Source: Psammoneis japonica (Eukaryota). From it: DNA of 64,000 nt. The notes beneath the pieces were generated by a model that searched no databases, was not told the origin of the DNA, and was given only the letters and a program-made list of their open reading frames with translations. Below are positions 8,173 to 40,507 of the stretch, piece by piece. A program made the position numbers and the translations under genes. The stretch lies in the NCBI GenBank assembly GCA_008632985.1, contig QPGO01000031.1, forward strand, positions 372,001 to 436,000, written 5' to 3'. Position 1 is the first letter of the stretch, and each line of letters begins with the position of its first letter.

Positions 8173-8402
8173 TGTTGCCCTACTGTACTTCGCATTTTCG
8201 AAGAGTAGAGAGAGAATTAAAATTCCTCAGAGAGTTTGAGGAATTTTGTTTCACCGTGCGTTTACTTCGAGAGAGTACTCGCGTTTTTTGAAATCTCAAA
8301 ACTGCCGCCGAGCCGACAGCCGACGTCATCAAAGCCGCCGACGACATATGCCCCGCGCTGCCCACGACAAAAGAGGCGCACAAAACAACTAAAAGCGACG
8401 CA

Positions 8403-9569
8403 ATGAACAATACAAGCACCGGTAGCAACGAAGCTAATTTGAAGGAGAGGGATTATGGCGACGACCACCAAGACCTGAGCAATGATAACAACATGGGGCA
8501 TTCCAGCGACCACGACGAAAAAAGCGACCACCCAAACTCAGCACATGACAACAACTCGACACCATTTAGCAGATGCATGAAGGCAGCCAATTCACGCATG
8601 AAAAACGCCAGCACCCTTGAAAGCATGGCACATGACATGAGACGATTCCCACGGTCTTACTTTGACATCCTCGAACAAGCAGAGAAGGAAGCCAAATCCT
8701 CCGTCCAGCTACGTGATGCTGCTCGCACTCTTGATCGATCGGCAATTGAGGAACAACGCAAAGACAACAACGAATTTATGATTCAAGACTTGAGACTGCG
8801 GATACAAGGACAGGCTTTTGAATGCATAGATAACCCAAGATCAAAAGCCGAACCGACAAAAGAGGAAATCAAGGCTCTTCGGCTACTGATTGACAAGATC
8901 CTTTCGAACGAAGCAGTGAGTGTGAAGAAAATTCTGACGAGACTGGTGGAAAGTTTCGAAAAGGAAATCAAAAGGGAACGGGTACGAGAGATATCCGAAA
9001 ATGAGGTAGATGACTTGAAAGCGGAAAACGGAGCTTGCAGTGACAATGACGAAAAGAGCGACAAACCAAACTCAGCACAGCACGAAGAGTCGACACCGTT
9101 TAGCAGATGCATAAAGGCAGCCAATTCACGCCTAAACAACGCAAGCACCCTTGAAAGCATGGCACAACACATGAGACAATTCCCACGGTCTTACTTTGAC
9201 ATCCTGGAGCAAGCAAAAATAGAGGCTGCATGCTCTGCTCATTATTGCAGCGTCGCTCGTAATCTTGATCGATCAGCAATGGAAAAATCAGACGACAATC
9301 ATGATTTCGTCATTCAAGATTTGAGACTGTGTATACAGGGACAAGCTTTTGAATGCATGGACGACCCAAGATCTAGAGCAAAACCAACTCGAGAGGAAAT
9401 TAAGGCTCTTCACATTCTGATTGACAAGGTTCCTCCGTACGAAGCGGTGAGTGTCAAGAACGTTCTCACGAGACTGGTGGAAAAATACGAAAAGGAAATC
9501 AAATGGGAATGGGTTAGGGAAGCCTCCGAGAAAGTTGCAGAAGATCTTGAAAAAGAAAAAGTCTCTTGA
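8403..9569 (+). CDS. Hypothetical protein built from two ~180-aa internal repeats
   Basis: STPFSRC.KAANSR..NASTLESMA..MR.FPRSYFDILEQA occurs twice; 388-aa ORF. Confidence 0.8.
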   Translation: MNNTSTGSNEANLKERDYGDDHQDLSNDNNMGHSSDHDEKSDHPNSAHDNNSTPFSRCMKAANSRMKNASTLESMAHDMRRFPRSYFDILEQAEKEAKSSVQLRDAARTLDRSAIEEQRKDNNEFMIQDLRLRIQGQAFECIDNPRSKAEPTKEEIKALRLLIDKILSNEAVSVKKILTRLVESFEKEIKRERVREISENEVDDLKAENGACSDNDEKSDKPNSAQHEESTPFSRCIKAANSRLNNASTLESMAQHMRQFPRSYFDILEQAKIEAACSAHYCSVARNLDRSAMEKSDDNHDFVIQDLRLCIQGQAFECMDDPRSRAKPTREEIKALHILIDKVPPYEAVSVKNVLTRLVEKYEKEIKWEWVREASEKVAEDLEKEKVS

Positions 9570-23015: not shown

Positions 23016-23153
23016 GATCTCTATCTTGAGCTTTGTCGAGGTGTAGCAGCAGTTTCCATCATTTGAGAACGTGCTGCAGCAGCCACAATGCTGATGTTTG
23101 CGCCGCGCCAGAAAAAGCAAAACCTTTTCGCTCGATTCTTTTCACTCTCCGCA

Positions 23154-24230
23154 ACAGGGCTACTCTTGCTGGGAAGGGAGGCATTATCAAATTAAGTCTT
23201 TAGTTAACTATTCTGGTGTAAAGCTACTCTCTAGAGAGTGAATCATCTAGGGCCCTACAGTACACTGTACCGTACTGACAAAAAAACCCTCTCTAGAGTA
23301 GAGAGCAAAAAATGCGGTATCTTGTAACATCTTCATCTAGAGGCGGATGCGCTCCAACAACGCGCACCAAAAACGATAAACGATAAACGATAAAATATAA
23401 ACGAAACGCAAAGAGAGACGATGACGTGAACGTCCTTCATCATCATCTTCTTCTGATAGTCCCTCTGAATAGGTCAAGCCAATGAGGGACAAACAGCAAG
23501 AAGATTCCCTGAGGGAGCTACTTGAGAAGCAATATCTTCATGCACAAGAATACTGCAACTCTCAAACTAGATACCACCAGGCGCTTGCTTCGTCGAGTGG
23601 CTCGGCACACACTTCTTCCGTGGAGAAGCGGCTTAACAGCGACTCGCTAAGACAGGCGACAATGGACATGATGGAGTGTGGAGACGCCGTTAGGTCTGAT
23701 CTCGAGGAGCTACAGGGCTACTCTTGCTGGGAAGGGATGCATCATCAAATTGAGCCTTTAGTTCACTCTTCTGGTGTAAAACTACTCTCTCTAGAGAGTA
23801 GCTAGAGCGCTGACAACTGACAAAACTTAGAGGCAGAAAATGCGGCATCTTGTAACATCTAGGCGGATGCGCTCCAACAACGCGCACCAAAACTTACAAC
23901 AAACATAACACTGAAGACGCAAAGAAGACGATGACGGGAACGGGAACGTCGTTCATCATCATCATCATCTTCTGATAGTCCCTCTGAATAGGTCAAGGCA
24001 ATGAGCGACAAACAGCAAGAAGATTCCCTGAGGCAGCTACTTGAGAAGCAATATCTTCATGCACAAGAATACTGCAACTCTCAAACTAGATACCACCAGG
24101 CGCTTGGTTCGTCGAGTGGCTCGGCACACACTTCTTCCGTGGAGAAGAGGCTTAACAGCGACTCGTTAAAACAAGCGACAATGGAAATGATGGAGTGTGG
24201 AGACACCGTTAGGTCTGATCTCGAGGAGCT
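23154..24230 (+). repeat. Tandem duplication of ~0.55 kb (23154-23711, 23712-24230) covering promoter and 5' CDS
   Basis: acagggctactcttgctgggaaggga at 23154 and 23712; near-identical coding starts at 23482 and 24001. Confidence 0.92.
23482..23805 (+). pseudogene. Truncated duplicate of 24001-24441
   Basis: Nearly identical until SDLEEL, then reads into the next repeat unit's upstream DNA. Confidence 0.75.
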
Positions 24231-28677: not shown

Positions 28678-29061
28678 TCATATTCCGTCTCCTCCAAGAT
28701 CTTCAAAGGTTTTGCTCCACCGGGCCTGTTCGCGCTTGAGATTCTCCAACACAAACTTTTCGCCTTGCTGGGCTTGATGATCCTCGTGCCAGTCTTCAAC
28801 ACGTCGGTGCCCTGATTGTGCTTGAACAGATGATGCTTCGTCATTCATGACGGTTTCTTGAGAAATGTCGTCATCATCCACTGGCATGTGATGGGGTGGA
28901 TCTCCACTTCTCATCGGCATTGACGATGCGCGCTTTCGACCATGGCATCCAAGAACAAAACTTGCAGCGCATTGATCAAGCAACAGCAAGTACAGCAGCA
29001 CCACAAATCTTCTGCAAGCTGGGGTCCTCCTATTTTCAACAGCTGATAACATCCTTCTCAT
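28678..29061 (-). CDS. Small hypothetical protein with signal peptide / plastid-type presequence
   Basis: Hydrophobic stretch then CAASFVLG; acidic C-terminus. Confidence 0.55.
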   Translation of the reverse strand: MRRMLSAVENRRTPACRRFVVLLYLLLLDQCAASFVLGCHGRKRASSMPMRSGDPPHHMPVDDDDISQETVMNDEASSVQAQSGHRRVEDWHEDHQAQQGEKFVLENLKREQARWSKTFEDLGGDGI

Positions 29062-29235
29062 CTCGTTATCATTATGTTGCGTCCATTGAGAAGCGTTTTT
29101 ATCAATGGTTAGGGGAACTCTACAGTAGCGTGAAGCGTGCGCAAAGAGAAAGAATCATCATCCAGATTCAAGATTCAAGATCTTCCAAGTTCTGCAGTCT
29201 GGAAGTCATTCGCGCGATGATGCTGCACACGACGC

Positions 29236-30730
29236 CGAACTGCGGAAAAGTGCGCATTGGCGTTTGGTTTTGGTTTACGAAATGTAACTTCTACAAAGTT
29301 TGTTATTCAAATCCTCATTCTATAGTCTATAATAGTGCCACTTTGAGCAGCGTTTGTCAAACCACACAAAAGCGGGTCTACAAAGAAAGAGAGAATTCAA
29401 TGTGGCTTTTCACCCGTGCTTTTCCAGCCACTCACAATTTCATTGAAAGCATGATGTCAATCACCATGATTCAAAGAGGCGCTGCACTTGCTAGCAAAAG
29501 AATATGGGCACAGACATGGACTGCGCCTTCAGCAGAGATGCGTCATTGTATCTCTACTCCTTCGTCAGTCTTTCGATTGCAGCGCAAAACAATATTTACA
29601 TCTTTATTGAAGAAAGAGATCTTGGCGACACCTTCGCTGAAGAAGGATAAGGAGCTAGCCGATATCTTGCGCGAAGCAGCGGCTAATAAAGAAGCTTCCT
29701 TTTGTCCCCACAAGATTGGTAGAAGTGGAGAGATTGTATTGGAGCGTGTTTTGAAAGAGTCAAACATCGGGTCTCGTTCATACACATTGAAACCCACACT
29801 TTCCAACGGAAAGATGCCAGATGCAATCCTGCACACCCGTGTTTTTGGCAATATTTGCATTGATTCTAAGTTCATAGTGAAGCCTTACAAAAAACTGTTG
29901 GACGCCAAGAAAACCAAGGACCCGAACATGATCGAAGAAGCGCTTAGCGGTTTGGAAAGAGCAATAAAAAGCCGTGCCAAGATACTTGCAAAGAAGTACA
30001 TTACAGATAAGAAAGGCGAAACGGCAGAAAGGGTCTTCATGTTTCTTCCTTCTGAATCCATTTTTCAGGAAATTGCTCGACTCAATCTAGTCGTTGAGAA
30101 TGTTGTCATAATCTCATCAGCTACATTGAAGTAGCTTCTTTCGATACTGCTGAGAATGTGGCTAAGGTTGCAAGGGGGTATTCTTTAATCCCAGAAACAT
30201 AAAGAAATAGAACTTCCCTACGAACCTCCAAATAATGTAGAACACGGACACTTTCCAACTGACTGCCGTTACCATGTACGCCAAGGGCGACGCGACGGCC
30301 GTTGCCAGCAACTCTTCACGAGCATTGACGGCCATTGCCAGATTCTTGTTCTTGGGCTTGGTATCGATGAAAAAAAAACCCATCCGAAGCGCAAACAATG
30401 GTTCCAATCATACGTACTCCAGAACCAGGAGGAGCCATGTTCTCGTTGCACGTATGCACGCACAGGCTCGTCGATGACTGGCGCTTCGCATCCTCTGGAC
30501 AGACTTGCAGTCGATTATCACCCATGATGCCAAAAACCGAGCGGTGGCAGCAATCGCGCTGGACCGGAAACTGTGGAGAGCAGCGAGACCCTGGGGTCAG
30601 TTCTTCTCCACAAATGAAGCAAAGCATGCCATTATCGTCTTCATCATTGTGTAAAGGACAACTCAATGCACGAATGACGCCAGTTGTGTTCAGTCGGCGA
30701 TCGCTGTTTTCCATACGAACCTCAAAATTC
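29236..30730. repeat. Left arm of a diverged inverted duplication (partner ~53028-55362)
   Basis: cgaactgcggaaaagtgcgcattggcgtttgg is the reverse complement of the stretch ending at 55362; homology runs through RmuC and RBR remnants. Confidence 0.92.
29400..30134 (+). CDS. rmuC: RmuC-like PD-(D/E)XK nuclease domain protein, copy 1 (C-terminus cut by TAG)
   Basis: GEIVLERVL, PDAIL, IDSKF, KKYI, VFMFLPSE motifs of the RmuC family. Confidence 0.7.
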   Translation: MWLFTRAFPATHNFIESMMSITMIQRGAALASKRIWAQTWTAPSAEMRHCISTPSSVFRLQRKTIFTSLLKKEILATPSLKKDKELADILREAAANKEASFCPHKIGRSGEIVLERVLKESNIGSRSYTLKPTLSNGKMPDAILHTRVFGNICIDSKFIVKPYKKLLDAKKTKDPNMIEEALSGLERAIKSRAKILAKKYITDKKGETAERVFMFLPSESIFQEIARLNLVVENVVIISSATLK

Positions 30731-30845: not shown

Positions 30846-32111
30846 CTATGGCTTGCTCAATCGGTTCCAACTACCTCCATAGTCTCCATCGACATGACAA
30901 CTGACGCCTCGACAATAATTCTTACGCACAAACCGTTTTGGGAGACGATTGGCAAGGAAGGTGACGAGTCTAGATGACATGGGCAGGGCAAAGAACAATC
31001 GAGGCAACCCAGGAATGCGAAGGGTCCATCCAAACCAAAACAAGAGCACATCAATGTTGGCACTCGCTCCCAAATCCTTTCCATATCCCAAGGCAAACAG
31101 ACGGTCGATATAGGGCGATATTTTTCCAATGCGATTGTGCTTGAGAAGTTGTGGGACGTGTGGCCGTAACAACGGGAGATGCGGCCCAATCACGTCCAGT
31201 CTTGAAACGTAATATTCCAAATAAGGAAGCAACTGCTCGGCAAGAGCGTATGAAGAGTACTCATCGCTAATGTTCGTGCTGTTGTTCTTGCTAATGCTAT
31301 CCTTTGCCATCTCGCTCTCGTCTGTATCCGCGTATAACAATAGCGAATCAATGTGCTTCAACAGCAAGCCCGTATATGGAGCCAATGTGTCAATATGATC
31401 TAGAATCCATGGCAAATGAGGCTCAATATCGTCAAAGCGTTCCAAAATTTCTGGCAGATACGGTTCAATCGAGGCCAGGTGCTGGCGATTGTTGAGCACT
31501 CGTTCCAAAATGGGCGCCACGTGATCTTCCAGTCTGTCGAGCCTTGCGAGTATGGCGGGTACATGTGGTACAAGCTTTGGGGTGGATGGGTCGACGAGAT
31601 GCTTCATTTGCTGTGGGTTCTTGACCAGCCCAGATACAATGCGTGCACCCGTCGCCGTTTGCACCGCCATGTACTGTCCCACCGAGTTCCATTTCTGATT
31701 CTTTGGACCAATTTTACCGTGGACTCGGCCTAGTTTACGCAAAAGCACGTCGGTACTCTTGGAAAAGGTAGCAACAGGGTGCTGCAGCAGCGCCTGGATC
31801 GGCCCTACTTCAAAGTTAGACTCGGGATTTGAACAGCAGGCGATCTGTCTTTCGAGCTCCTGAAGTTCCATTTGCTGCTTTACAATGGCAGACCTGAGCT
31901 TACCTGCTCTGGCACGCATAGCATCGAGATTTGTGCTGTTGCTGCTGAGATCAACATCCGATGAGGGTTGCGCTACAGTTGTCGAGTACAACAACCCATC
32001 ATTCTTGCGCGGACTGCGAGAGAAGCCCGGGACAGAAAAGCAAGTCACGACGTCTTGGAAACAGAGAGGAAAAAGGAAGAGCAATCCAGCGAAATGAATA
32101 GAGCGCTTCAT
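30846..32111 (-). CDS. Hypothetical, probably plastid-targeted protein with coiled coil and Leu/Pro/His helical repeats
   Basis: 421-aa ORF; signal peptide ending VTC-FSVP; repeated (I/L)xP(H/Y)LP units. Confidence 0.8.
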   Translation of the reverse strand: MKRSIHFAGLLFLFPLCFQDVVTCFSVPGFSRSPRKNDGLLYSTTVAQPSSDVDLSSNSTNLDAMRARAGKLRSAIVKQQMELQELERQIACCSNPESNFEVGPIQALLQHPVATFSKSTDVLLRKLGRVHGKIGPKNQKWNSVGQYMAVQTATGARIVSGLVKNPQQMKHLVDPSTPKLVPHVPAILARLDRLEDHVAPILERVLNNRQHLASIEPYLPEILERFDDIEPHLPWILDHIDTLAPYTGLLLKHIDSLLLYADTDESEMAKDSISKNNSTNISDEYSSYALAEQLLPYLEYYVSRLDVIGPHLPLLRPHVPQLLKHNRIGKISPYIDRLFALGYGKDLGASANIDVLLFWFGWTLRIPGLPRLFFALPMSSRLVTFLANRLPKRFVRKNYCRGVSCHVDGDYGGSWNRLSKP

Positions 32112-32886
32112 TCTCGTCTTTCAAACGGTGCACTGAAGTTCAATGCAAATACAGAGAGAGAAAATGACAGCTGATAGCTTGCCGGTCAAGCCACTTGAAG
32201 CCTTCCTATTTATTTTTCTATCCTATCCTGCCTTTTTTCTATCCCACCTTTTTTCTATCCTAACTGGCGATATTTTCTATCCATAATTGAAAGCATGTGT
32301 ATCACTTCCATACGTAGAATTAATACCAGTGCATACGGCATTCTTAACGGTGCAGATAGATAATTAACATAAATGACATGTAGATCATATACAAAAATTG
32401 CTGACTCCCGCGACTGCAGCGACCGCAGCCGCGACCAGAGCACTCAGACGAACGCAGCACAATGGCGTGTTTTCACGGCGCCGTACTACGCCGTTACGAC
32501 AAAGATTTGGCTCACGACAAGTTGGGAATGTGTTATATATAATACGACGTATATGATTATTGCTTGAAATGTTGCTATATGGTTGACAACCATCACGAGT
32601 AGCGCAGTCAACAATGATGTACTCTACCGGTATGATTGAAGGTCCACATTTCTGCTGGTATACTACATTGCTTCAATCGAAGTTGTTGCAGCTCGGTTTG
32701 AGCGATACATTGTCGAGTAAAATCTTTAGTTATTGACGAACTCAGGCTCAATTCATTGTGGATGCCTTTGTTTGGCTTGTGGCAGTAAGTACTTGTCATT
32801 GAATGCACTGTCTGTTTTGAATTAATTATCTCAACTCACCGAATGCATCGTTCCATAAACCAGGGATTTCAAAAGTTATCTAGTGA

Positions 32887-35800
32887 TTAGTCTTCCATGC
32901 GGATCAAAGCGCCGGGTGTTTTCTTTGGCCGGCCAGGCTTACGTTTTTGTCCATTAGCAAAGGTTGCGGCTGCAGGAGGGATGTCCTGGTTACCATATCC
33001 TTCGAGAATGTTGTGGTTCGTGTGCGTCATGAAGAATATGTGGGGACAGAATCCATACTGCAGAGCCTTACGACACGTGCATCGCCATTTGTATACAACG
33101 TTTTGGTCGCGATATTTGTGCTGAACTCGGAATGGTTCGCACTCCTGAATACCTTCAAAGTTTGCATCTAAGGGAGTGACGACGGCGAATGATCGTTGGT
33201 ATTCATGAAGTTCGTCCACTGCTTTTCCCCATGCCAGCCTCCATTTCTTTGGGTCAACATGGTCTGGAAGGGTGCGTAAGCCATTGGCCTCCATGTATAT
33301 TTGTTTTGCACCTCTTGTCGCCATTGCACGAAGTTGTTCTTCAGTTGCCTTGGTCACTTGCTTGTATTTCTTGTACCACAGTTTCACTTGCGCCTTCTTT
33401 GTGTCGCACCCTTTACGCGGAATGGGGGGGTCAACTTCACCTGTTGTTTGCTGATGAAGATACAGTAACTCATGGTCGCCACTGAGCATGTACACTTTGG
33501 AGTCCATGCCGCGTCCCTCCTGTAAAACAACCCCTCCTTGGCGTAGGTACTGCAGGCCTGGAGTGGGATCGTGTCCGAGAAATTGCATTCCAACACGTAA
33601 GTCCTCTGCATGTCTTGATGTCGGGATTCTTTCGCTACCGTATGGGACTGGAAGATAACTAACACCATGCATCAGGCATTCTTTTTCTGTATATTCTTTT
33701 CCATAGTCCATCAGGAAGCTCAAATTTCCTGCTACGGTTTGGCGTCGACGTTCCATGCCTTCCTTTAGGAGTTTGTTGTGAGCCTCATCAGAATTGGTGT
33801 TGTCAGGCAAACCAAAGTGGAGGTCAGTCGGGTCGTTTGTTGTATTGACTAACTCACCGCTGTGGCTGTCGCAGCAACTGTTGGTCACATCAAGTAAGTC
33901 CGAATAACGCCAGGTGCCATGAGATCCATTATTCGTGCAACGGGCAAATGTAGTCTTGATGTACTCAGCGAAATTGGCAAATGATCCTGGCACACCAGGG
34001 ACATCTCCGTGCTCCAGGTCGGATACGAGCTTCTCAAACAGAAGAGTCGAAAGAGAGCGAGAGGTAACGAACTTTACCTCGTACAGAGAATCCTTGACGT
34101 AGTTGTACAATTTTTGTCTAACCTTCTTGAGTTCTTCTTTCCGTTTCTCTTTGTCAGAGATGCGTTGAAATCGGGGTTCCTGTATTGTGATTGGACAATA
34201 CTGCGTATGCTCGGTTCCGTCCATGACTTTTCCCAAATGTCGGAGCAAATGAGCCCAGCAGTCGTTGTGATTATAGATCATTGCAGGTACCGCAGCACCT
34301 AGCCCATTCGGTATTGCCTTGTCACCGTCCGAGTTGGACGTAAATACGAGTCCCTTGGTGTCCCACCGAAATGTCGAGTGCACAGATCCATCTTGAGGTT
34401 GTGGAATCAGTTCAGGGAAATAGGAAGCTGAATCGGTAATCTTGCGTCGGGTGTCTTCCGACAGTCGGGATCGATATCGTTGCGACTGCATCGTGACAAA
34501 GTCGTCGTTGCACCGTTGCTCCAGTGCTACCTCGTCAGCGTCGAACGAAAATGGCTTGTCCATGGTACACGGTGGAACAGGAGATGGAAGGTTGAACGGC
34601 AGTTCCGTTATGTTGCCAGGTAGCTCACTGTTTGGCAGAGAACAAATGTATTCGGACACATTACGGACTGCACGTGTTGCAAAGCAGTAGTCGCCGCCAT
34701 CTTCCGTACATGTGACGAGGAAACCAAGGATCTTTGCTGACAGGGTCGCGTCATTCACAAAAACGATAAGGATACGGAAGCCAGCGCAAACAAAGGTCTT
34801 GTGTGTTGTGTCAGCGGACAACACTATCCGTGAATGGACATCTCCACGACTCGCAATGGCTGGTACAAAAGAGGCCATTGCAACATTTGTAACGAAGACG
34901 CGACAAATGTGGCGTGGCTTCCATTTCTTGTTACTATCATTGCGCTCCAGTGGTGGCTCTGTCTTGTCGATCTTCATGTCTATACCCGCAACAAACATGT
35001 CGTGCTCGTTGAATTCCTCGCCTTTGCGGGCGACAACTTCATCAAAGGTGTGTCGTCTTGCAAACTCTTGGATGTCTTTGAAATTGTCGTTGAATACCTT
35101 GTCGGCTTCTGCGTCAATCTTTGACAGCACTGTTCTCCTGCAGCTTTCTATCTGGCTAGCAAGAACGTTCCATTCAGCCTGCGACAGTTTCCATCGTTTT
35201 TCAGAAGAGGTGGCGGATCGCGGGCACAGCGCCATGCGTATTTTCAAGTCACTGCCTGACAATGCTGGATATTTTCGCATTGTTGCGTCTATGTATTCCT
35301 GCATGTCGATTGGCAGCTGATCCTTTTTTCCTGGCTTCGTCGGCACACGCATGTGTTGGAATGTGCTGTGACTTTCCAACGATGGGAACGACCCGTCGTG
35401 TGTCAGGGGCATGCCATGCGCGCTGCCGAGAGTGTACCACTGTACAGACACTACATTTGTTCCGACAACGTGGTATGCTCTGATCTTGCAGTTACAGTCA
35501 CCTTTGTAGACATACTGGCAACCAAACTTTTCTTCCCGTGTGCCGTTGGCTAATCGCTTGGCACTCCTTTGTACATCAATTCTTTTCCAGTTGCCGGGAG
35601 GTTGCGTTTGAATAAACTGAATGGCAGACTCGAAAGTCACATCGACGTGAGAAGACCGTGTGTCAAATTGGAACTCCTTGACGGTGACCCAACACTCTTC
35701 CTGTTTCACTTTTCCCTTGAATCGACCTGAATCAGCTGGACCCCTCGGTTTGCACTTGCAGTCGAGCTTGCCACACTCCGTGAGGCGGGAATTGTTGGAA

Positions 35801-35907
35801 GTATTCCTGCTAAGTTGTGGCGGTATTACCGCAGTTGCTATCGTAGTAACTGGTTTGTCTGGCACAGATTGGATCGAGTCTCTACTCGATTCGTCTTCGT
35901 TCCACAT
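32887..35907 (-). CDS. MULE transposase (DDE, SWIM zinc finger, AT-hook-like tail)
   Basis: LSADTTHK, NSDGDKAI, CWAHLLR, NTNSDEAHNKLLK, CTCRKALQYGFCPH, KPGRPKK; 1006-aa intact ORF. Confidence 0.9.
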   Translation of the reverse strand: MWNEDESSRDSIQSVPDKPVTTIATAVIPPQLSRNTSNNSRLTECGKLDCKCKPRGPADSGRFKGKVKQEECWVTVKEFQFDTRSSHVDVTFESAIQFIQTQPPGNWKRIDVQRSAKRLANGTREEKFGCQYVYKGDCNCKIRAYHVVGTNVVSVQWYTLGSAHGMPLTHDGSFPSLESHSTFQHMRVPTKPGKKDQLPIDMQEYIDATMRKYPALSGSDLKIRMALCPRSATSSEKRWKLSQAEWNVLASQIESCRRTVLSKIDAEADKVFNDNFKDIQEFARRHTFDEVVARKGEEFNEHDMFVAGIDMKIDKTEPPLERNDSNKKWKPRHICRVFVTNVAMASFVPAIASRGDVHSRIVLSADTTHKTFVCAGFRILIVFVNDATLSAKILGFLVTCTEDGGDYCFATRAVRNVSEYICSLPNSELPGNITELPFNLPSPVPPCTMDKPFSFDADEVALEQRCNDDFVTMQSQRYRSRLSEDTRRKITDSASYFPELIPQPQDGSVHSTFRWDTKGLVFTSNSDGDKAIPNGLGAAVPAMIYNHNDCWAHLLRHLGKVMDGTEHTQYCPITIQEPRFQRISDKEKRKEELKKVRQKLYNYVKDSLYEVKFVTSRSLSTLLFEKLVSDLEHGDVPGVPGSFANFAEYIKTTFARCTNNGSHGTWRYSDLLDVTNSCCDSHSGELVNTTNDPTDLHFGLPDNTNSDEAHNKLLKEGMERRRQTVAGNLSFLMDYGKEYTEKECLMHGVSYLPVPYGSERIPTSRHAEDLRVGMQFLGHDPTPGLQYLRQGGVVLQEGRGMDSKVYMLSGDHELLYLHQQTTGEVDPPIPRKGCDTKKAQVKLWYKKYKQVTKATEEQLRAMATRGAKQIYMEANGLRTLPDHVDPKKWRLAWGKAVDELHEYQRSFAVVTPLDANFEGIQECEPFRVQHKYRDQNVVYKWRCTCRKALQYGFCPHIFFMTHTNHNILEGYGNQDIPPAAATFANGQKRKPGRPKKTPGALIRMED

Positions 35908-36096
35908 CGTGTTGAATAGAATTGTAAGCAGCAGCTTGTTGGATTATAAAATTGTAAGCAGAAGTGACTCAGATATTTGAAAGCTACGAATAATTAGTAC
36001 TGTCATAATATCGTGGCTTCGTGATTGTTTTCGACACGGTAAAAACACGTTTGCGGCAATAACAACGAAACGTGCTGCTGTTTTTGGTATCGTCAA

Positions 36097-37234
36097 CTAG
36101 TCCTTAATATTGAGTGACGTGTCAATAAAACGACCGTGGTGAAAGTAGACCTCAAATAAGGTCGTGTACTTCGGGCCAAGTCCACTAACGTGTTTCTTCA
36201 CTTTGCCGACAGTGTCAAGGGTAGCAGACGTCTGTGAGTAAGGAACAGTCATAAAAAATGAAAGCCGTGTAAGTATCAGAAGATCAAAAGCAGCAAGGTA
36301 TGAAGCATTTCACATACAGCAGAAATAGATAGGGAAAAACCCTTCATAACGTCCACTTTGCCGCGGTACTGCCTGGTATTAAACATGGAGCTTTCAACAA
36401 TAGTGTCGATCCAATCATTGATGTGTCGTGCAAAATCATAATGAAGCCTTTGATTGGCGGGGTTGTTGCAGGTAAGAGAAGGATCCAACTTGACCAAAGT
36501 GCAATCGACCTTCTCCTCCTTGATGTTTTTGGCTTGGTCTTTCTTTGCAGCAGTACGACGTTTCGTATTCGTATTCTTTTTGGTACCTGCATTCGCATTC
36601 TTGTTGGCGGCGCGTTTCGTCATGGCTCCAAGTGCGTCACTGGCTTGGTCTTTCTTTGCAGCAGTACGACGTTTCGTATTCGTATTGTTTTGGGTACTAG
36701 CATTCGCAGTCTTGTTGGCGGCGCGTTTCGTCATGACTCCAAGTACATCACTGGTTACGTCTTTCTTTGCAGAAGTACGACGTTTCGCACTCGTATTCTT
36801 TTTGGTGCCAGCATTCGCAGTCTTGTTGGCGGCGCGTTTCGTCATGGCTCCAAGTGCGTCAGCAGCTGAAACAGCAGAAGACGTGGCGGTTGTTTCGTCA
36901 GCTCATTGCCATTGGATGAAAGAAACAACACTTTGACATTATCCTGACGCTTACCTTTCTTTTTGTTGTTGCTGGCGGCGGCGGGTTTGCCCCTTACTTT
37001 CAGATTGGAGCGAGGCGAAGCGGAATAACTTGGAGCCTTTTTCTTCGAAGGATCTTCTTCATCATCCGATGAAATAACTATGACCTCCCGCAAGAAGGTA
37101 ATTTCTTCGTCACTGGATGGGTAATCGTCAGACGACTTGTGTTTCTTGGAGGCAGCGGGTTTCTCGTCGGAAGACGACTCTTCATCGTGGGAACAAAGAT
37201 CGATCACGACGCTCTTGTTGACTGCATCACTCAT
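36097..37234 (-). CDS. MULE accessory protein with SIM-like motifs and three basic ~37-aa repeats; introns 36954-36866 and 36317-36232
   Basis: GTAAG..TTCAG and GTATGT..CACAG introns join the ORFs in frame, ending ..SLNIKD*; repeats MTKRAANK..KRRT.AKKD. Confidence 0.75.
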
Positions 37235-37886
37235 GGTTTGATGGTTTGCTCCTGCAAACAAAAAGTAAGAACAGAAAAGTGAGCAGTCATGAGAGTAATG
37301 AAATGCAACAAGACAGCAAAACGCATAGGGCCCTAATGCATTGTCAGCGTTATGAGTAGCTGAATCGCTTTTTCCCTGGAGTGCCGAGAAAGTGTTCGCG
37401 CCGTTTTCCTACTACTAAATTTGGAATTGGAAAATGAATGATGCAGAAAGAAAAATTTCAAATAACATGTAACTATTCATGCTCTATATAGTCTATATTG
37501 ATCGCAACGGATTCTATCCGAAACACGGGCATCCGACAGACGAAACACGTGGGATAGAAATCACCCCAGTTTGGGATAGAAAATATAATATTTCTGCACT
37601 TGAAGCACCAAGCAAGCTCGACCTTTCTCGTTTCAGCAAGGCCCTACACAGTAACGTTTTGGTTTTGGTGGTTGCTTGTCGTCGGATACGTCCACGTCAT
37701 CGTCTTGCTGACATCATTCTGACGTCCCTAAAAAATAAGTCGGTAATGCATGCGAGCTACGAGGTCTGACAAAGAACATCCGGGTTCTTTCGGATCTCAG
37801 ATCCAATATGCGAGACACAATGGCGAACGCAGTGCCGACACAATCAACAACAACTGACCGCGAATTACTATCGATAGATTAGCATC

Positions 37887-38219
37887 ATGGAGGTAAGCGA
37901 TAACGAGAATGATGATTCTCCGGGTGTTCCGCAAGCTGCTGGTGAAGGTTCTGCGGCAACACGTCGCCGGGTCGTGCCTCTAGCCAGCGACAACACGTCA
38001 ACGCCTACCAAACCGAGTGCGGTTGCTTCCAGGACTCGCAAAGGCGGCAACAGCCCGAAAGTTGTACACAAGGATTTCTTCAACGGTGCGTTATTAAAAA
38101 AAAGTGTAAAAGAAAACGAAAAATGGTGTAGGTGGATCGCTCAATACAGTAGCTCATTTGTCCTTGTGTTGCTTCATACAGATTTTCCAGACGACTTTGG
38201 CCTGCCAAAAATGTCGTAG
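37887..38219 (+). CDS. Possible first exon of a hypothetical gene
   Basis: ATG ORF with acidic/low-complexity N-terminus; downstream structure unresolved. Confidence 0.3.
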   Translation: MEVSDNENDDSPGVPQAAGEGSAATRRRVVPLASDNTSTPTKPSAVASRTRKGGNSPKVVHKDFFNGALLKKSVKENEKWCRWIAQYSSSFVLVLLHTDFPDDFGLPKMS

Positions 38220-40507
38220 AGGTACGTTCACAATAATGTTTATGAATCAGCTACTGTTTACTCTAGCCGCATTTTAATACGGGGCGTCATGAGGCTCACG
38301 GGCGATTCACGACAAGGGCATGACGGATTTGCCACTTGTAACATCCCGAAAATGCGTGCGGCAACAACACAAAACAATGTTCCAATTTGGAACAAAGAGA
38401 ATAGCATGAGGTTTTCGCCTCTTTTCTCCTGTCGACAAGGTTCAAGCGTAGATGCCTGTGTCGGGATACGTGATTGGACAAAGCTTGAGGCTGGGGAAAT
38501 CTGGCTTTTCGTAGTGCTTGAGCTTGTCTTCTGCAACTCGCGTGTTCCGATTGTATGCTGGGAGAGAAGGTTCAATCTTTCTTTACCTTGCATATCGTTC
38601 ACACCGACAGACATTGAACCCCCTAAATGTCGTGCTCTCTCTCACAACTGAAGTTATTAACTTTTTTCTTTTGTACGGATTCTCGAATCATCTATGAAAC
38701 GGAAGAATGTGCTTATGAATGTGAGATCCCACTAGACAAACAGATTGCAACAGAGGGAAACCGCAGAGGTTTGACTACCGCATTTCCGTGGAGGGTTCCC
38801 ATGAGTGTATCGGGGGGTGAAAAATTGTAATCGTGTAATAGCGTTTGAAGCGCTCACGCTACAGAGTGTTGTTCCCCTTTTTGTATGGTAGCGTTCGTTT
38901 CGTACCTTGGATTGCGTGTTGTGTCTCTACACTAATAGCAGCGAAAAATGTATGCGTGAGACCCTCCAAGACAATGCGTACAAGACACATCACACATCTA
39001 CTCTCTAGGGTACGCAGTTCAACAATAGGCACTCGAGAGCCTTGTTCCAATAAACGCACGACACAAAACGTGCAATGCGGACTGGAAAAAACGACACACA
39101 GCACAGTCCGATTGAAATCCAAAACGGAAAACAACGACTGCGAGGGAGTCAACTCTCTTGGCGAGTGCATTGCTATACTCTTCCACAAATGTAACGGAGT
39201 GCATAGCGATGGGTAATCGGAACGATTAAAAACACCAGCATCCTGACTATTTGTGGAGCGAAACCCCCGAAGGTGGAGCGATTGATAAGCTACTCACCTC
39301 ATGGCGGTTCCGAGAAAATCTCCCACATGAGAATTCGCACCATCTGCCAAAAGAATCAAATAGAAGTAGACTTGTGAGAAATTATGGTCTCAAACGAGTC
39401 AATGCTCGTGGCTTTTGTCGAACTGTTTGTCCGCTTGTGACTCTGCTCTTGATGGAAACAAAGAGAAGAGTGTCTGGGGACGAGTTTGCTCTAGCGACGT
39501 GTCGACACCTTTCCAATAAAGTCGTTTGTTCTTCGATGTGCATTGCTGCAAAAAGGAAACCAGTTCTTCTGAAAGCCCTAAAGGGAAAAAGAAGAATGGA
39601 CGTGGCTGTCGCATTTTTTCCTCGGTCTGATGATGGTCCACGCACCTTTTTCCGTCGTTTTGTGGGTGGGTGCTGCACAGCCAAAAACGATGATAATGTC
39701 AAAAGCTCAAAGTGGGGGGTGAAATCACCGGAAGATGTCATTATCGCTATTCATAAAAGTGAAACTAGGAACGCAATTGTATTGTATGTAACGCTGCGGA
39801 GCTCGTCGAAGACTGATGAGTGAGGGTGTGAGGGTTGCGGGTGTGGTGAGGAGAGAGGAGACGACCGACTTGGACTGGTCCAGCCGTTTTTTCTGTGTCG
39901 CGGAAGAAGACAGACCAGTCTTGGATACTCTGTAGATCGTACGTAGGAGCCACACAATTCGTTCGTGGTAGCGCGGGAGCCACGACTCCTGTTCCCTCCA
40001 TCTGTGTGCCTCTCGATCGCATCCTCTAGACTCTAGGAGTAGCTAGCTAGAGGGCCCTACCCGGTAGCTGTTCGACAATGATGCAAATTATTTGCAGTGC
40101 TTTCTCAAGAACGTATGTACTCTTTTTCTTTTCGAGCTGTAGATAAAGGGTTGAATTATTGTAGAATTGAACGTTCCGGGTAAGTGTGACAATCCGTCCA
40201 AACACCGAAATCTTTCGCGGCGGCTACCAAGACTCAACATCCCGATTTGCCGTGAAATTGCTACGTGGAAAATCCACAAACCGCCACCACCAACACGTGT
40301 CAAAGGAAAGATGACTCACCACGCCTCTTGGACGAGTGGACGAACGCACTTGTTGCCGACAGTGCCATCAATACGAAGGGTACCCACATGCCATTAGCAA
40401 TACATGCATTGGGCTACACAAAGCAACAAACACTCTACATAGATATCGAACACAATCCAAGCAAGCATTGAAAGTTCTGCTAAAATACGAATGCTGCTGC
40501 CAGCATT

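What the first reader, a model, noticed from the sequence alone, without database searches (positions are those of the whole stretch)
36097..37234. MULE accessory gene with SUMO-interacting-like motifs and basic repeats: candidate anti-silencing factor
Seen: predicted 3-exon gene with VVIDLCSHDEE and EVIVISSDDEED (hydrophobic core plus acidic tract, typical SIM form), three Lys/Arg/Ala-rich ~37-aa repeats and a small globular C-terminus. Known: Arabidopsis VANDAL MULEs encode the anti-silencing protein VANC, and SUMO acts in transposon silencing. Inference: a counter-defence protein that might explain the element's escape.
Basis: partly seen in the sequence, partly recalled or inferred. Interest (0 to 1): 0.75.

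Follow-up and report, generated by a model that had tools for sequence, protein, structure and literature searches.

The report
Orphan second gene in MULE-like transposon
A recently mobile Mutator-like DNA transposon carries, upstream of its transposase, a predicted gene for a basic, repeat-rich protein with two SUMO-binding-type motifs and no known relatives, but its splicing and any anti-silencing role remain unproven.

Summary
The sequence features are real. On the minus strand, 37234-36097 reads as a 3-exon, 320-codon gene. It has two SIM-type motifs, three 37-aa basic repeats and canonical GT..AG introns of 89 and 86 nt. An open structure this long is rare by chance (1 of 1500 shuffles).

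It lies inside a 5,395-bp element (32202-37596) with a perfect 10-bp target-site duplication and motif arrays at both ends. The element also carries a 1,006-aa SWIM-ended transposase whose nearest feature-space neighbours are MULE/SWIM clusters. One DNA contig of a public run shows the empty site, so the insertion is polymorphic.

- The protein has no detectable relative (0 hits among 1.84 billion representatives) and no Pfam domain, so it is not a VANC homologue.
- The "globular C-terminus" was not supported (pLDDT 57-69; exon 3 could not be joined).
- In the only cDNA-like run, contigs pass unspliced through both predicted introns. The only splicing seen inside the element is antisense to the transposase.

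Best reading: a lineage-specific accessory gene for a nuclear, chromatin-docking adaptor. Anti-silencing is possible but untested.

The parts
32202..37596 (-). MULE-like DNA transposon, 5,395 bp, both genes on the minus strand
   Evidence: Flanked by identical 10-bp direct repeats. An X1 contig joins 32191 to 37597, skipping 5405 with 10 shared letters. X1 contigs start at 32201 and end at 37596.
32192..32201 (.). Left target-site duplication CACTTGAAGC
   Evidence: Read; identical to 37597-37606.
37597..37606 (.). Right target-site duplication CACTTGAAGC
   Evidence: Read; the 10 letters shared at the empty-site joint.
32215..32283 (-). Left subterminal array, 4 copies of the GGGATAGAAA-like motif
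   Evidence: 10 matches with at most 1 mismatch in the window against 2.48 expected; 0 of 100 shuffles reached 10; 6 of the 10 lie at the two element ends. Inverted repeats.
37551..37582 (+). Right subterminal array, 2 exact copies of GGGATAGAAA
   Evidence: The ends align only weakly as inverted repeats apart from the motif.
32887..35907 (-). Transposase gene, 1,006 codons from the first Met, no intron needed, SWIM-like CxCx9CxH near the C-terminus
   Evidence: ORF. Relatives P0001 (34% identity, E 2.5e-126) and P0002 (38%, E 8e-111). P0002 starts at the aligned Met. Atlas neighbours are MULE/SWIM clusters at 0.95. No Pfam hit.
36955..37234 (-). Accessory gene exon 1 (93 codons + 1 nt): acidic/Ser region with two SIM-type motifs and basic clusters
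   Evidence: codon score +13.5, best of 6 frames.
37163..37210 (-). SIM-type motif 1: VVIDL core followed by an acidic/serine tract
   Evidence: consensus from PMC2808386 (passages).
37052..37087 (-). SIM-type motif 2: VIVI core followed by SSDDEED
   Evidence: The expressed variant contig changes I52 to T, giving V-T-V-I, which still fits the consensus (my codon reading).
36866..36954 (-). Predicted intron 1 (89 nt, GTAAGC..TTTCAG), not seen spliced
   Evidence: X2 contig 36817-37327 runs through it. 4 of that contig's 8 differences fall in these 89 nt (hypergeometric P = 0.034).
36318..36865 (-). Accessory gene exon 2: three 37-aa basic repeats plus about 70 aa of non-repeat C-terminal region
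36530..36861 (-). 111-nt tandem array x 3.0 encoding the basic repeats
   Evidence: score 559, 90% matches; 93% and 91% identity to the reference copy.
36232..36317 (-). Predicted intron 2 (86 nt, GTATGT..CACAG), not seen spliced
   Evidence: X2 contig 34798-36617 runs through it.
36097..36231 (-). Predicted exon 3 (44 codons + TAG), the weakest part of the model
   Evidence: codon score +4.2, best of 6 frames.
32785..34157 (+). Span holding three plus-strand GT..AG introns (32785-32863; 33543 or 33597 to 33706; 34062-34155, cut +2) used by a spliced RNA antisense to the transposase
   Evidence: Joints in X2 contigs that are absent from X1. Splice dinucleotides checked on the plus strand. No ATG-started ORF over 154 aa in the spliced plus-strand RNA.

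Best explanation
This is a lineage-specific (orphan) second gene of a recently active, low-copy, Mutator-like cut-and-paste transposon. Read with its two predicted introns, it encodes a 320-aa basic protein (pI 9.8) in three parts. (1) An N-terminal acidic/serine region has two consensus SIM cores, each followed by a CK2-type Ser/Asp/Glu tract, with Lys clusters between them. (2) Three 37-aa Lys/Arg/Ala/Thr/Asn repeats (pI 11.6) are modelled as one long helix. (3) A region of about 115 aa has no confident fold. I infer a nuclear adaptor. The basic repeats would hold it on DNA or chromatin, and the tandem SIMs would dock it on SUMO-modified nuclear proteins. It would serve the element's own transposition or expression, in the broad sense that MURB, TnpA or VANC serve theirs. 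Shown: the motifs, the repeats, the open frames, the splice signals, the position inside a mobile element, and the absence of relatives. Inferred: that it is spliced and translated, nuclear localisation, SUMO binding and any role for the transposon.
For: Gene-like structure beyond chance: 1 of 1500 and 2 of 1000 shuffles reach the observed frame length. The model frame has the best codon score in all three exons, and per codon it is similar to the transposase. The introns are 89 and 86 nt with GT..AG ends, within the 79-164 nt range of introns shown by contig joints nearby. Two SIM-type sites arose in 52 of 20000 shuffles, against 3 such sites in 6322 aa of 13 background ORFs and proteins, and both fit the published consensus (PMC2808386, passages). 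The gene lies inside the element boundaries. X1 mean word depth is alike over the transposase (299.5) and the accessory region (299.5-316.3) and well above the left flank (54.3-55.1). This suggests, but does not prove, that the copies carry both genes. Differences in a variant contig cluster in predicted intron 1 (4 of 8 in 89 of 511 nt, P = 0.034). Second ORFs of unknown or accessory function are a known MULE feature (PMC6446971, PMC10401008, passages).
Against: cDNA-like contigs of X2 cover both predicted introns without a joint, and no spliced form was seen. The contig covering exon 1 differs from the window at 8 places, including GT to GC at the intron-1 donor, so the window's own version of exon 1 was not seen in X2. 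There are no homologues and no domain, so there is no conservation evidence. The repeat units differ mostly at non-synonymous sites (14:1, 9:2, 6:2). The 4 exon-1 differences in the variant are 3 non-synonymous to 1 synonymous (my reading). No purifying selection is therefore shown. SIM cores are short and common by chance (PMC2808386). Alternating acidic-serine and basic tracts are also typical of generic nuclear or nucleolar disordered proteins (my knowledge). The C-terminal fold is not supported.
Confidence: 0.4

Rival explanations
1. Not a functional protein-coding gene as modelled. The region would be transcribed mainly as part of a long antisense or unspliced RNA, and the open frames would be partly a by-product of a stop-free tandem repeat. 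At most a short 130-aa unspliced product (SIM region only) would be made.
For: X2 contigs 34798-36617 and 36817-37327 pass through both predicted introns. All three intron positions (four joints, one with two alternative donors) seen inside the element are plus-strand, antisense to the ORFs. There are no homologues. There is no synonymous bias among the repeat units. Atlas recognition for exon 2 is low at 1481. Exon 3 is only 44 codons.
Against: Frame length with phased GT..AG introns is rare in shuffles even with the repeat collapsed. The model frame has the best codon score in each exon, including the non-repeat parts. Contigs cannot give the strand and drop rare isoforms (stated), so unspliced antisense RNA would hide a rarer spliced sense mRNA.
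Confidence: 0.25
2. One reading: an anti-silencing (counter-defence) protein. It could act, for example, as a SIM decoy that competes with SUMO-dependent heterochromatin effectors at the element, functionally analogous to VANC.
For: Two SIM-type motifs beyond chance. SUMO-dependent transposon silencing is documented in animals (10.1101/533091, search listing and start of abstract only). VANC proteins also carry tandem peptide motifs in variable regions (PMC5735166, passages). The element is recently mobile (empty site, perfect duplication).
Against: It is not homologous to VANC: no DUF1985 or DUF287 hit at E <= 1. No arrays of a short motif occur in internal non-coding DNA; the GGGATAGAAA arrays are only at the termini. 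There are no methylation, small-RNA or expression data. Spliced antisense RNA over the transposase is present in the one cDNA-like run.
Confidence: 0.1
3. A captured host gene fragment (Pack-MULE-type transduplication) carried as a passenger, with no function for the element.
For: MULEs often acquire host fragments (PMC6446971, abstract and passages). The gene has introns like host genes.
Against: No similar sequence elsewhere in the 64-kb window and none in the protein collections. It has a complete ATG-to-stop structure placed directly upstream of the transposase. The host genome itself could not be searched, so this is not excluded.
Confidence: 0.1
4. The 'accessory' exons and the transposase belong to one transcription unit with alternative splicing, as in En/Spm. 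Exon 2's phase-0 donor could join an AG acceptor at about 35935, which is in frame with the transposase ORF, giving a SIM/basic-repeat-transposase fusion.
For: The genes are co-oriented and only 189 nt apart. One X2 contig bridges the gap (34798-36617). Donor and acceptor phases match (my reading).
Against: No joint was seen there. P0002 starts at the Met aligned with the window's transposase Met. The phases would match by chance one time in three.
Confidence: 0.07

Closest known systems
VANC (VANDAL21/VANDAL6 MULEs, Arabidopsis)
   Same: An extra gene inside a MULE with weak or absent terminal inverted repeats. The protein has tandemly arrayed peptide motifs in a fast-evolving region (PMC5735166 and PMC6446971, passages).
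   Different: VANC has DUF1985 and DUF287 domains and binds arrays of a 9-base motif in internal non-coding DNA. Here there is no Pfam domain and no homologue. The motif arrays lie only at the termini, and the repeats are basic 37-mers in coding sequence. SIM-type motifs are not described for VANC in the passages I read.
MURB (mudrB of maize MuDR)
   Same: A lineage-restricted second gene of a Mutator element with no known biochemical activity, required for insertion (PMC10401008, passages). This is the same 'kind' of thing.
   Different: mudrA and mudrB each have a promoter in a TIR of 150-250 nt (same paper). Here the two genes are in tandem on one strand and the termini are short and imperfect. 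Sequence similarity to MURB was not tested, because no MURB sequence was available to the tools.
TnpA of En/Spm (CACTA)
   Same: An accessory DNA-binding protein encoded beside the transposase. Some families have the two genes head-to-tail in tandem (PMC13547354, passages). The subterminal motif arrays here could be such a target.
   Different: It belongs to a different superfamily. No similarity was detected, and no DNA-binding fold was predicted here.
Kaonashi (KI) MULEs with ULP1-like C48 protease domains
   Same: A precedent for a link between MULE-borne genes and the SUMO pathway (PMC6117577, passages citing Hoen 2006).
   Different: Those are captured protease domains that Pfam recognises. 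Here there are only short SUMO-binding-type motifs and no protease domain.
Cellular and viral SIM-bearing adaptors (PIAS, Pc2/CBX4, DAXX; herpesvirus ICP0-type counter-defence proteins)
   Same: A hydrophobic V/I core followed by acidic, CK2-phosphorylatable serines, often in tandem (PMC2808386, passages). The viral examples come from my own knowledge, not from a call.
   Different: None of the RING, SP-RING or histone-chaperone domains that give those proteins their activity. SUMO binding is untested.

Membership tests
Mutator superfamily (MULE) element | Target-site duplication of 8-11 bp (PMC6446971) | tested here: met
   Perfect 10-bp repeat at 32192-32201 and 37597-37606. The empty-site contig shares 10 letters at the joint.
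Mutator superfamily (MULE) element | DDE transposase recognisable as the MULE domain (PF10551 / PF00872) | tested here: inconclusive
   hmmscan finds no MULE family at E <= 1 or <= 10, on the whole protein or in pieces, nor in P0001. The Atlas feature search puts it next to MULE/SWIM clusters (0.95, 186-194 of 256 shared features; 9 of the 10 best hits that carry a family share a family or clan). The AlphaFold2 core model was unusable (pLDDT 37). A SDGDxxI..GLGAA.P...C..H stretch resembles the MULE signature by eye only.
Mutator superfamily (MULE) element | Zinc finger, commonly SWIM, C-terminal to the catalytic domain | tested here: inconclusive
   A CxCx9CxH pattern is present near the C-terminus, but PF04434 is not hit. 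P0001 keeps the three Cys but not the His position.
Mutator superfamily (MULE) element | Long terminal inverted repeats, or none (non-TIR MULEs) | tested here: inconclusive
   The ends align poorly except for shared TTTCTATCC-type motifs. This is compatible with the non-TIR type but is not a positive mark.
VANC anti-silencing proteins | DUF1985 and DUF287 domains (PMC5735166) | tested here: not met
   No Pfam hit of these families at E <= 1 for the frame pieces holding exons 1, 2 and 3.
VANC anti-silencing proteins | Binds dense arrays of a short motif in the element's non-coding DNA and causes loss of DNA methylation | not testable with these tools
   Needs ChIP/EMSA and methylome data. The only motif arrays found are terminal.
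SIM-containing SUMO binders (a motif class, not a family) | Core V/I-x-V/I-V/I or V/I-V/I-x-V/I/L (PMC2808386) | tested here: met
   The V-I-D-L core within VVIDL, and VIVI.
SIM-containing SUMO binders (a motif class, not a family) | Flanking acidic or phosphorylatable serine residues | tested here: met
   CSHDEESSSDE and SSDDEED directly follow the cores. The arrangement is rarer than composition predicts (52 of 20000 shuffles).
SIM-containing SUMO binders (a motif class, not a family) | Actual non-covalent binding to SUMO | not testable with these tools
Pack-MULE captured host fragment | Detectable parent gene in the host genome | tested here: inconclusive
   None in the window or in the protein collections. 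The host genome is not held.

The most novel reading that the evidence does not exclude
The protein is a transposon-encoded SUMO-pathway hijacker. Its tandem phospho-SIMs would dock on SUMOylated chromatin. This would either blunt SUMO-dependent heterochromatin formation on the element, or tether the transpososome to SUMO-rich promoter chromatin; the window's copy sits in a divergent promoter. Either would be a SIM-based accessory mechanism not described for any DNA transposon. It would have arisen de novo in a deep-branching MULE lineage that has only two other known members.
Probability: 0.08. Interest if true: 0.8.

Novelty: new variant of a known kind. Interest (0 to 1): 0.35.

Why it matters
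Accessory genes largely set how DNA transposons deal with their hosts, yet very few are understood (VANC, MURB, TnpA). If this one is real and binds SUMO, it would be an independent, sequence-unrelated accessory solution in a non-plant MULE lineage. It would also give a direct handle on whether SUMO-dependent chromatin pathways act on DNA transposons in this group of eukaryotes. The element itself is a good experimental object: it is small, low-copy, polymorphic for presence, transcribed, and has a spliced antisense RNA. As it stands, the functional claim rests on two short motifs and a gene model that the only cDNA-like data do not confirm.

Tried and rejected
- RNA support: the look-up of sequencing runs listed no RNA holder. 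Only three runs of one sample and study were listed. X2 is recorded as 'DNA?', and I treat it as cDNA-like only because of its GT..AG joints.
- Whole genome: none is held, so copy census, paralogue search and per-copy comparison were impossible.
- Homologues of exon 2 (182-208 aa): 0 of 816 word-sharing candidates at E <= 10. 0 of 1,835,955,588 representatives at E <= 0.001. Atlas gave no usable hit. PDB sequences gave 0 for exon 1 and 0 for exon 2 at E <= 10. Exons 1 and 3 were not searched in the large collections.
- Related loci: two metagenome scans, with the transposase alignment and with P0001, gave 497 and 458 pattern matches, none confirmed. The contigs behind P0001 and P0002 could therefore not be inspected for an accessory gene.
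- Structure: the exon-2 model has pTM 0.28, and the C-terminal part has low confidence. I ran no fold search on it because a long helix plus low-confidence helices would give meaningless matches. The transposase core model, from a 3-sequence alignment, had pLDDT 37.2, so no fold search was run on it either.
The spliced protein could not be submitted to any fold tool.
- PDB profile search with the transposase alignment: 0 hits at E <= 10.
- Rfam and tRNA scans of the window: 0 and 0.
- Earlier findings of this scan: nothing by place, by sequence (two look-ups) or by words.
- Literature: 0 papers hold 'Mutator-like' + 'SUMO-interacting motif' + 'transposon' together.
- Parts of the laid stretch without X2 cover (31500-32435 and 37350-37817) are not used as evidence.

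Full report
**What is there.** On the minus strand an ATG at 37234 opens a frame of 93 codons. It contains VVIDLCSHDEESSSDE (37210-37163) and EVIVISSDDEED (37087-37052).
- A GTAAGC donor at 36954 and a TTTCAG acceptor ending at 36866 (89 nt) join this frame, in phase 1, to the 208-codon open frame at 36902-36279.
- A GTATGT donor at 36317 and a CACAG acceptor ending at 36232 (86 nt) join that frame, in phase 0, to a 44-codon frame ending at TAG 36099-36097.
- The joined reading is 963 nt, or 320 codons. The product has pI 9.8, with segment pIs of 5.7 (exon 1), 11.6 (repeats) and 8.9 (C-terminal 115 aa).
- Tandem Repeats Finder gives a 111-nt unit x 3.0 at 36530-36861 with 90% matches (also family D3). 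That corresponds to three 37-aa Lys/Arg/Ala/Thr/Asn-rich units.

**Is it more than chance?**
- I allowed any ATG start and up to two arbitrary GT..AG introns of 60-170 nt. Dinucleotide shuffles of the 1,138-nt region then gave a best frame of 185.5 +/- 34.9 codons.
- 1 of 1500 shuffles reached 320 codons. With the tandem array collapsed to one unit, 2 of 1000 reached the observed 248 (a first run gave 0 of 150).
- A codon-usage log-odds score trained on 11 long ORFs outside the element is highest in the model frame for exon 1 (+13.5), exon 2 (+20.2), the non-repeat part of exon 2 (+9.6) and exon 3 (+4.2). Per codon this is similar to the transposase (+94.8 over 1,006 codons).
- I defined a SIM-type pattern after seeing the motifs: a consensus core within 3 residues of an 8-residue window holding at least 5 D/E/S. 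It occurs twice in exon 1. 52 of 20000 composition-preserving shuffles gave two or more sites. It occurs 3 times in 6,322 residues of 13 background sequences, namely 12 long ORFs of the window and P0001.
- Against a coding signature: the three repeat units differ mainly at non-synonymous sites (14:1, 9:2 and 6:2; codon positions 14/12/8).

**The element around it.**
- The 10-base string CACTTGAAGC occurs at 32192-32201 and again at 37597-37606.
- When contigs of three public runs of one sample were laid on 31500-38500, one X1 contig joined 32191 to 37597. It skipped 5,405 bases and shared 10 letters at the joint, which is the empty site.
- Other X1 contigs begin at 32201 and end at 37596. One runs on past 37598 into unrelated sequence, which I read as another insertion site.
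- X1 mean word depth is 299-378 inside the element against 54-55 in the left flank. The tool warns that this is not a copy number; I read it only as a hint of several near-identical copies.
- The element is therefore 32202-37596 (5,395 bp), with a perfect 10-bp target-site duplication and a presence/absence polymorphism.
- Its ends are poor inverted repeats but carry arrays of GGGATAGAAA-type motifs, 4 at the left and 2 at the right. That is 6 of the 10 window matches with at most 1 mismatch, against 2.48 expected, and 0 of 100 shuffles reached 10.
- It sits 81 nt upstream of the ATG of a minus-strand gene (32111) and 281 nt upstream of the ATG of a plus-strand gene (37887). This is a divergent promoter in a gene-dense region with ordinary host genes: V-ATPase c subunit, a formyl transferase/ACT-domain protein, a release factor and others.

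**The transposase.**
- The 1,018-codon frame 32890-35943, with its first Met at 35907, has no Pfam hit, whether scanned whole or in pieces.
- It has only two relatives in the 5.8-billion-protein collection. P0001 is 816 aa, 34% identical, E 2.5e-126, and was 1 of 7,553 candidates. P0002 is 552 aa, 38% identical, E 8e-111, and was 1 of 8,000 scored. P0002 begins at the Met aligned with the window's Met.
- It ends with a CxCx9CxH pattern (SWIM-like, by eye).
- The Atlas feature search places it beside MULE/SWIM clusters at 0.95 with 186-194 of 256 shared features.
- A PDB profile search gave nothing, and an AlphaFold2 model of the core was unusable (pLDDT 37.2).
- Together with the 10-bp duplication, which falls in the 8-11 bp range given for MULEs (PMC6446971, passages), I accept 'MULE-like'. 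It is a very divergent, rare lineage rather than a demonstrated member.

**Transcription.**
- No run on record as RNA holds the stretch (reported under Tried and rejected).
- Run X2 is labelled 'DNA?'. It shows six joints, all with GT..AG ends (at five intron positions; one has two alternative donors), that X1 lacks. One of them is an intron of the neighbouring plus-strand gene (38085-38180). I therefore treat X2 as cDNA-like.
- Inside the element its contigs splice out 32785-32863, 33543 or 33597 to 33706, and 34062-34155. All three introns have GT..AG on the plus strand, antisense to the transposase frame. The spliced plus-strand RNA has no ATG-started ORF above 154 aa.
- X2 contigs 34798-36617 and 36817-37327 cover both predicted introns of the accessory gene without a joint. 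Contigs carry no strand and drop rare isoforms.
- The contig over exon 1 differs from the window at 8 places, whereas the X1 contig there is identical to the window. Four differences lie in the 89-nt predicted intron 1, including GT to GC at the donor. The other four lie in exon 1: A86T, V53 synonymous, I52T and Y38C by my codon reading. The excess in the intron has P = 0.034. This weakly favours the intron being non-coding.

**The protein.**
- Exon 2 has no relative: 0 of 816 candidates at E <= 10 and 0 of 1.84 billion representatives at E <= 0.001.
- There was no usable Atlas hit, and Pfam and the PDB sequences gave nothing significant.
- A single-sequence AlphaFold2 model (mean pLDDT 71.2, pTM 0.28) makes the repeats one long helix (residues 2-111, pLDDT 81-88). 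The exon-2 part of the C-terminal region becomes two helices at pLDDT 57-69.
- The 'small globular C-terminus' is thus unsupported.

**How it most likely works.**
- Shown: a phased, gene-like structure inside a mobile MULE-like element; two consensus SIM cores with acidic, serine-rich flanks; a strongly basic repeat block.
- Inferred: the product is a nuclear adaptor. The basic repeats and Lys clusters would give nuclear import and non-specific DNA or chromatin affinity. The tandem, probably phosphorylation-enhanced SIMs would dock it onto SUMO-modified proteins.
- Whether that helps integration (as MURB is needed for insertion; PMC10401008, passages), binds the terminal motif arrays (TnpA-like; PMC13547354, passages) or counters silencing (VANC-like; PMC5735166, passages) cannot be decided.
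- My odds: about 0.55-0.6 that a protein is made from at least exons 1-2; about 0.3 that it binds SUMO; about 0.1 that it is an anti-silencing factor.
- The alternation of acidic-serine and basic tracts is also what generic nuclear or nucleolar disordered proteins look like (my knowledge). PMC2808386 itself warns that SIM cores are frequent by chance.

**Comparison and novelty.**
- Extra ORFs in MULEs are known: mudrB, MutB, an unknown second ORF in MULE-Co, and PMD/DUF genes in VANDAL (PMC6446971, Table 1 text read).
- A link between MULEs and SUMO exists through the captured ULP1-like proteases of KI-MULEs (PMC6117577, passages).
- This gene is not a member of any of those families. The VANC domains were tested and are absent; MURB similarity was not tested.
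- A search of the held library for 'Mutator-like' + 'SUMO-interacting motif' + 'transposon' returned 0 papers.
- I therefore rate it a new variant of a known kind, namely a lineage-specific MULE accessory gene. The functional hypothesis is attractive but untested, and the gene model is not confirmed by the available cDNA-like contigs.
- Interest 0.35.

Noticed in passing
window 32528-34722 (+), introns 32785-32863, 33543/33597-33706, 34062-34155: A spliced RNA antisense to the transposase ORF. X2 contigs join across three plus-strand GT..AG introns, one with two alternative donors, and X1 does not. The spliced RNA has no ORF over 154 aa. It may arise from a promoter in the left end, and it could feed RNA silencing of the element.
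   Followed up: partly
window 32191/37597: Empty-site contig in run X1 (skips 5405, 10 shared letters). The insertion is polymorphic and lies in a divergent promoter about 370 bp wide, between the ATGs at 32111 (-) and 37887 (+).
   Followed up: partly
window 32890-35907 (-): The transposase lineage is extremely rare. It has only two relatives (P0001, P0002) in the 5.8-billion-protein collection, no Pfam MULE/SWIM hit and no PDB relative. The N-terminal 200 aa have conserved Cys/His patterns (also in P0002) that may be a zinc-finger DNA-binding domain.
   Followed up: partly
window 36953: The expressed variant contig (X2, 36817-37327) has GT to GC at the predicted intron-1 donor and I52T inside the second SIM-type core.
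   Followed up: partly
window 35934-35943 and 36318: Exon 2's phase-0 donor and an AG acceptor just upstream of the transposase Met are in the same frame. A SIM/repeat-transposase fusion isoform is formally possible, but no joint was seen.
   Followed up: no
window 32491-32568, also 32674, 32708, 32836: Contigs of X1 and X2 match short internal stretches of the element's left part and then run into unrelated sequence on both sides. These could be deletion derivatives or a shared fragment elsewhere in the genome.
   Followed up: no
window 37250-37262 (-): A pyrimidine-rich ...TTTTTGTTTGCAG lies directly upstream of the accessory ATG and looks like a splice acceptor, so there may be a 5'UTR intron. 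The X2 contig is contiguous there.
   Followed up: no
window 8501-9568 and 23151-24230: Large direct repeats of 200-290 nt at 519-558 nt spacing (75-95% identity). The first pair lies inside the 425-codon ORF 8292-9566, which has no Pfam hit.
   Followed up: no
window 28851-30131 (+): A 427-codon frame with an RmuC-family domain (E 3.1e-21) in a eukaryote-like, intron-bearing context.
   Followed up: no
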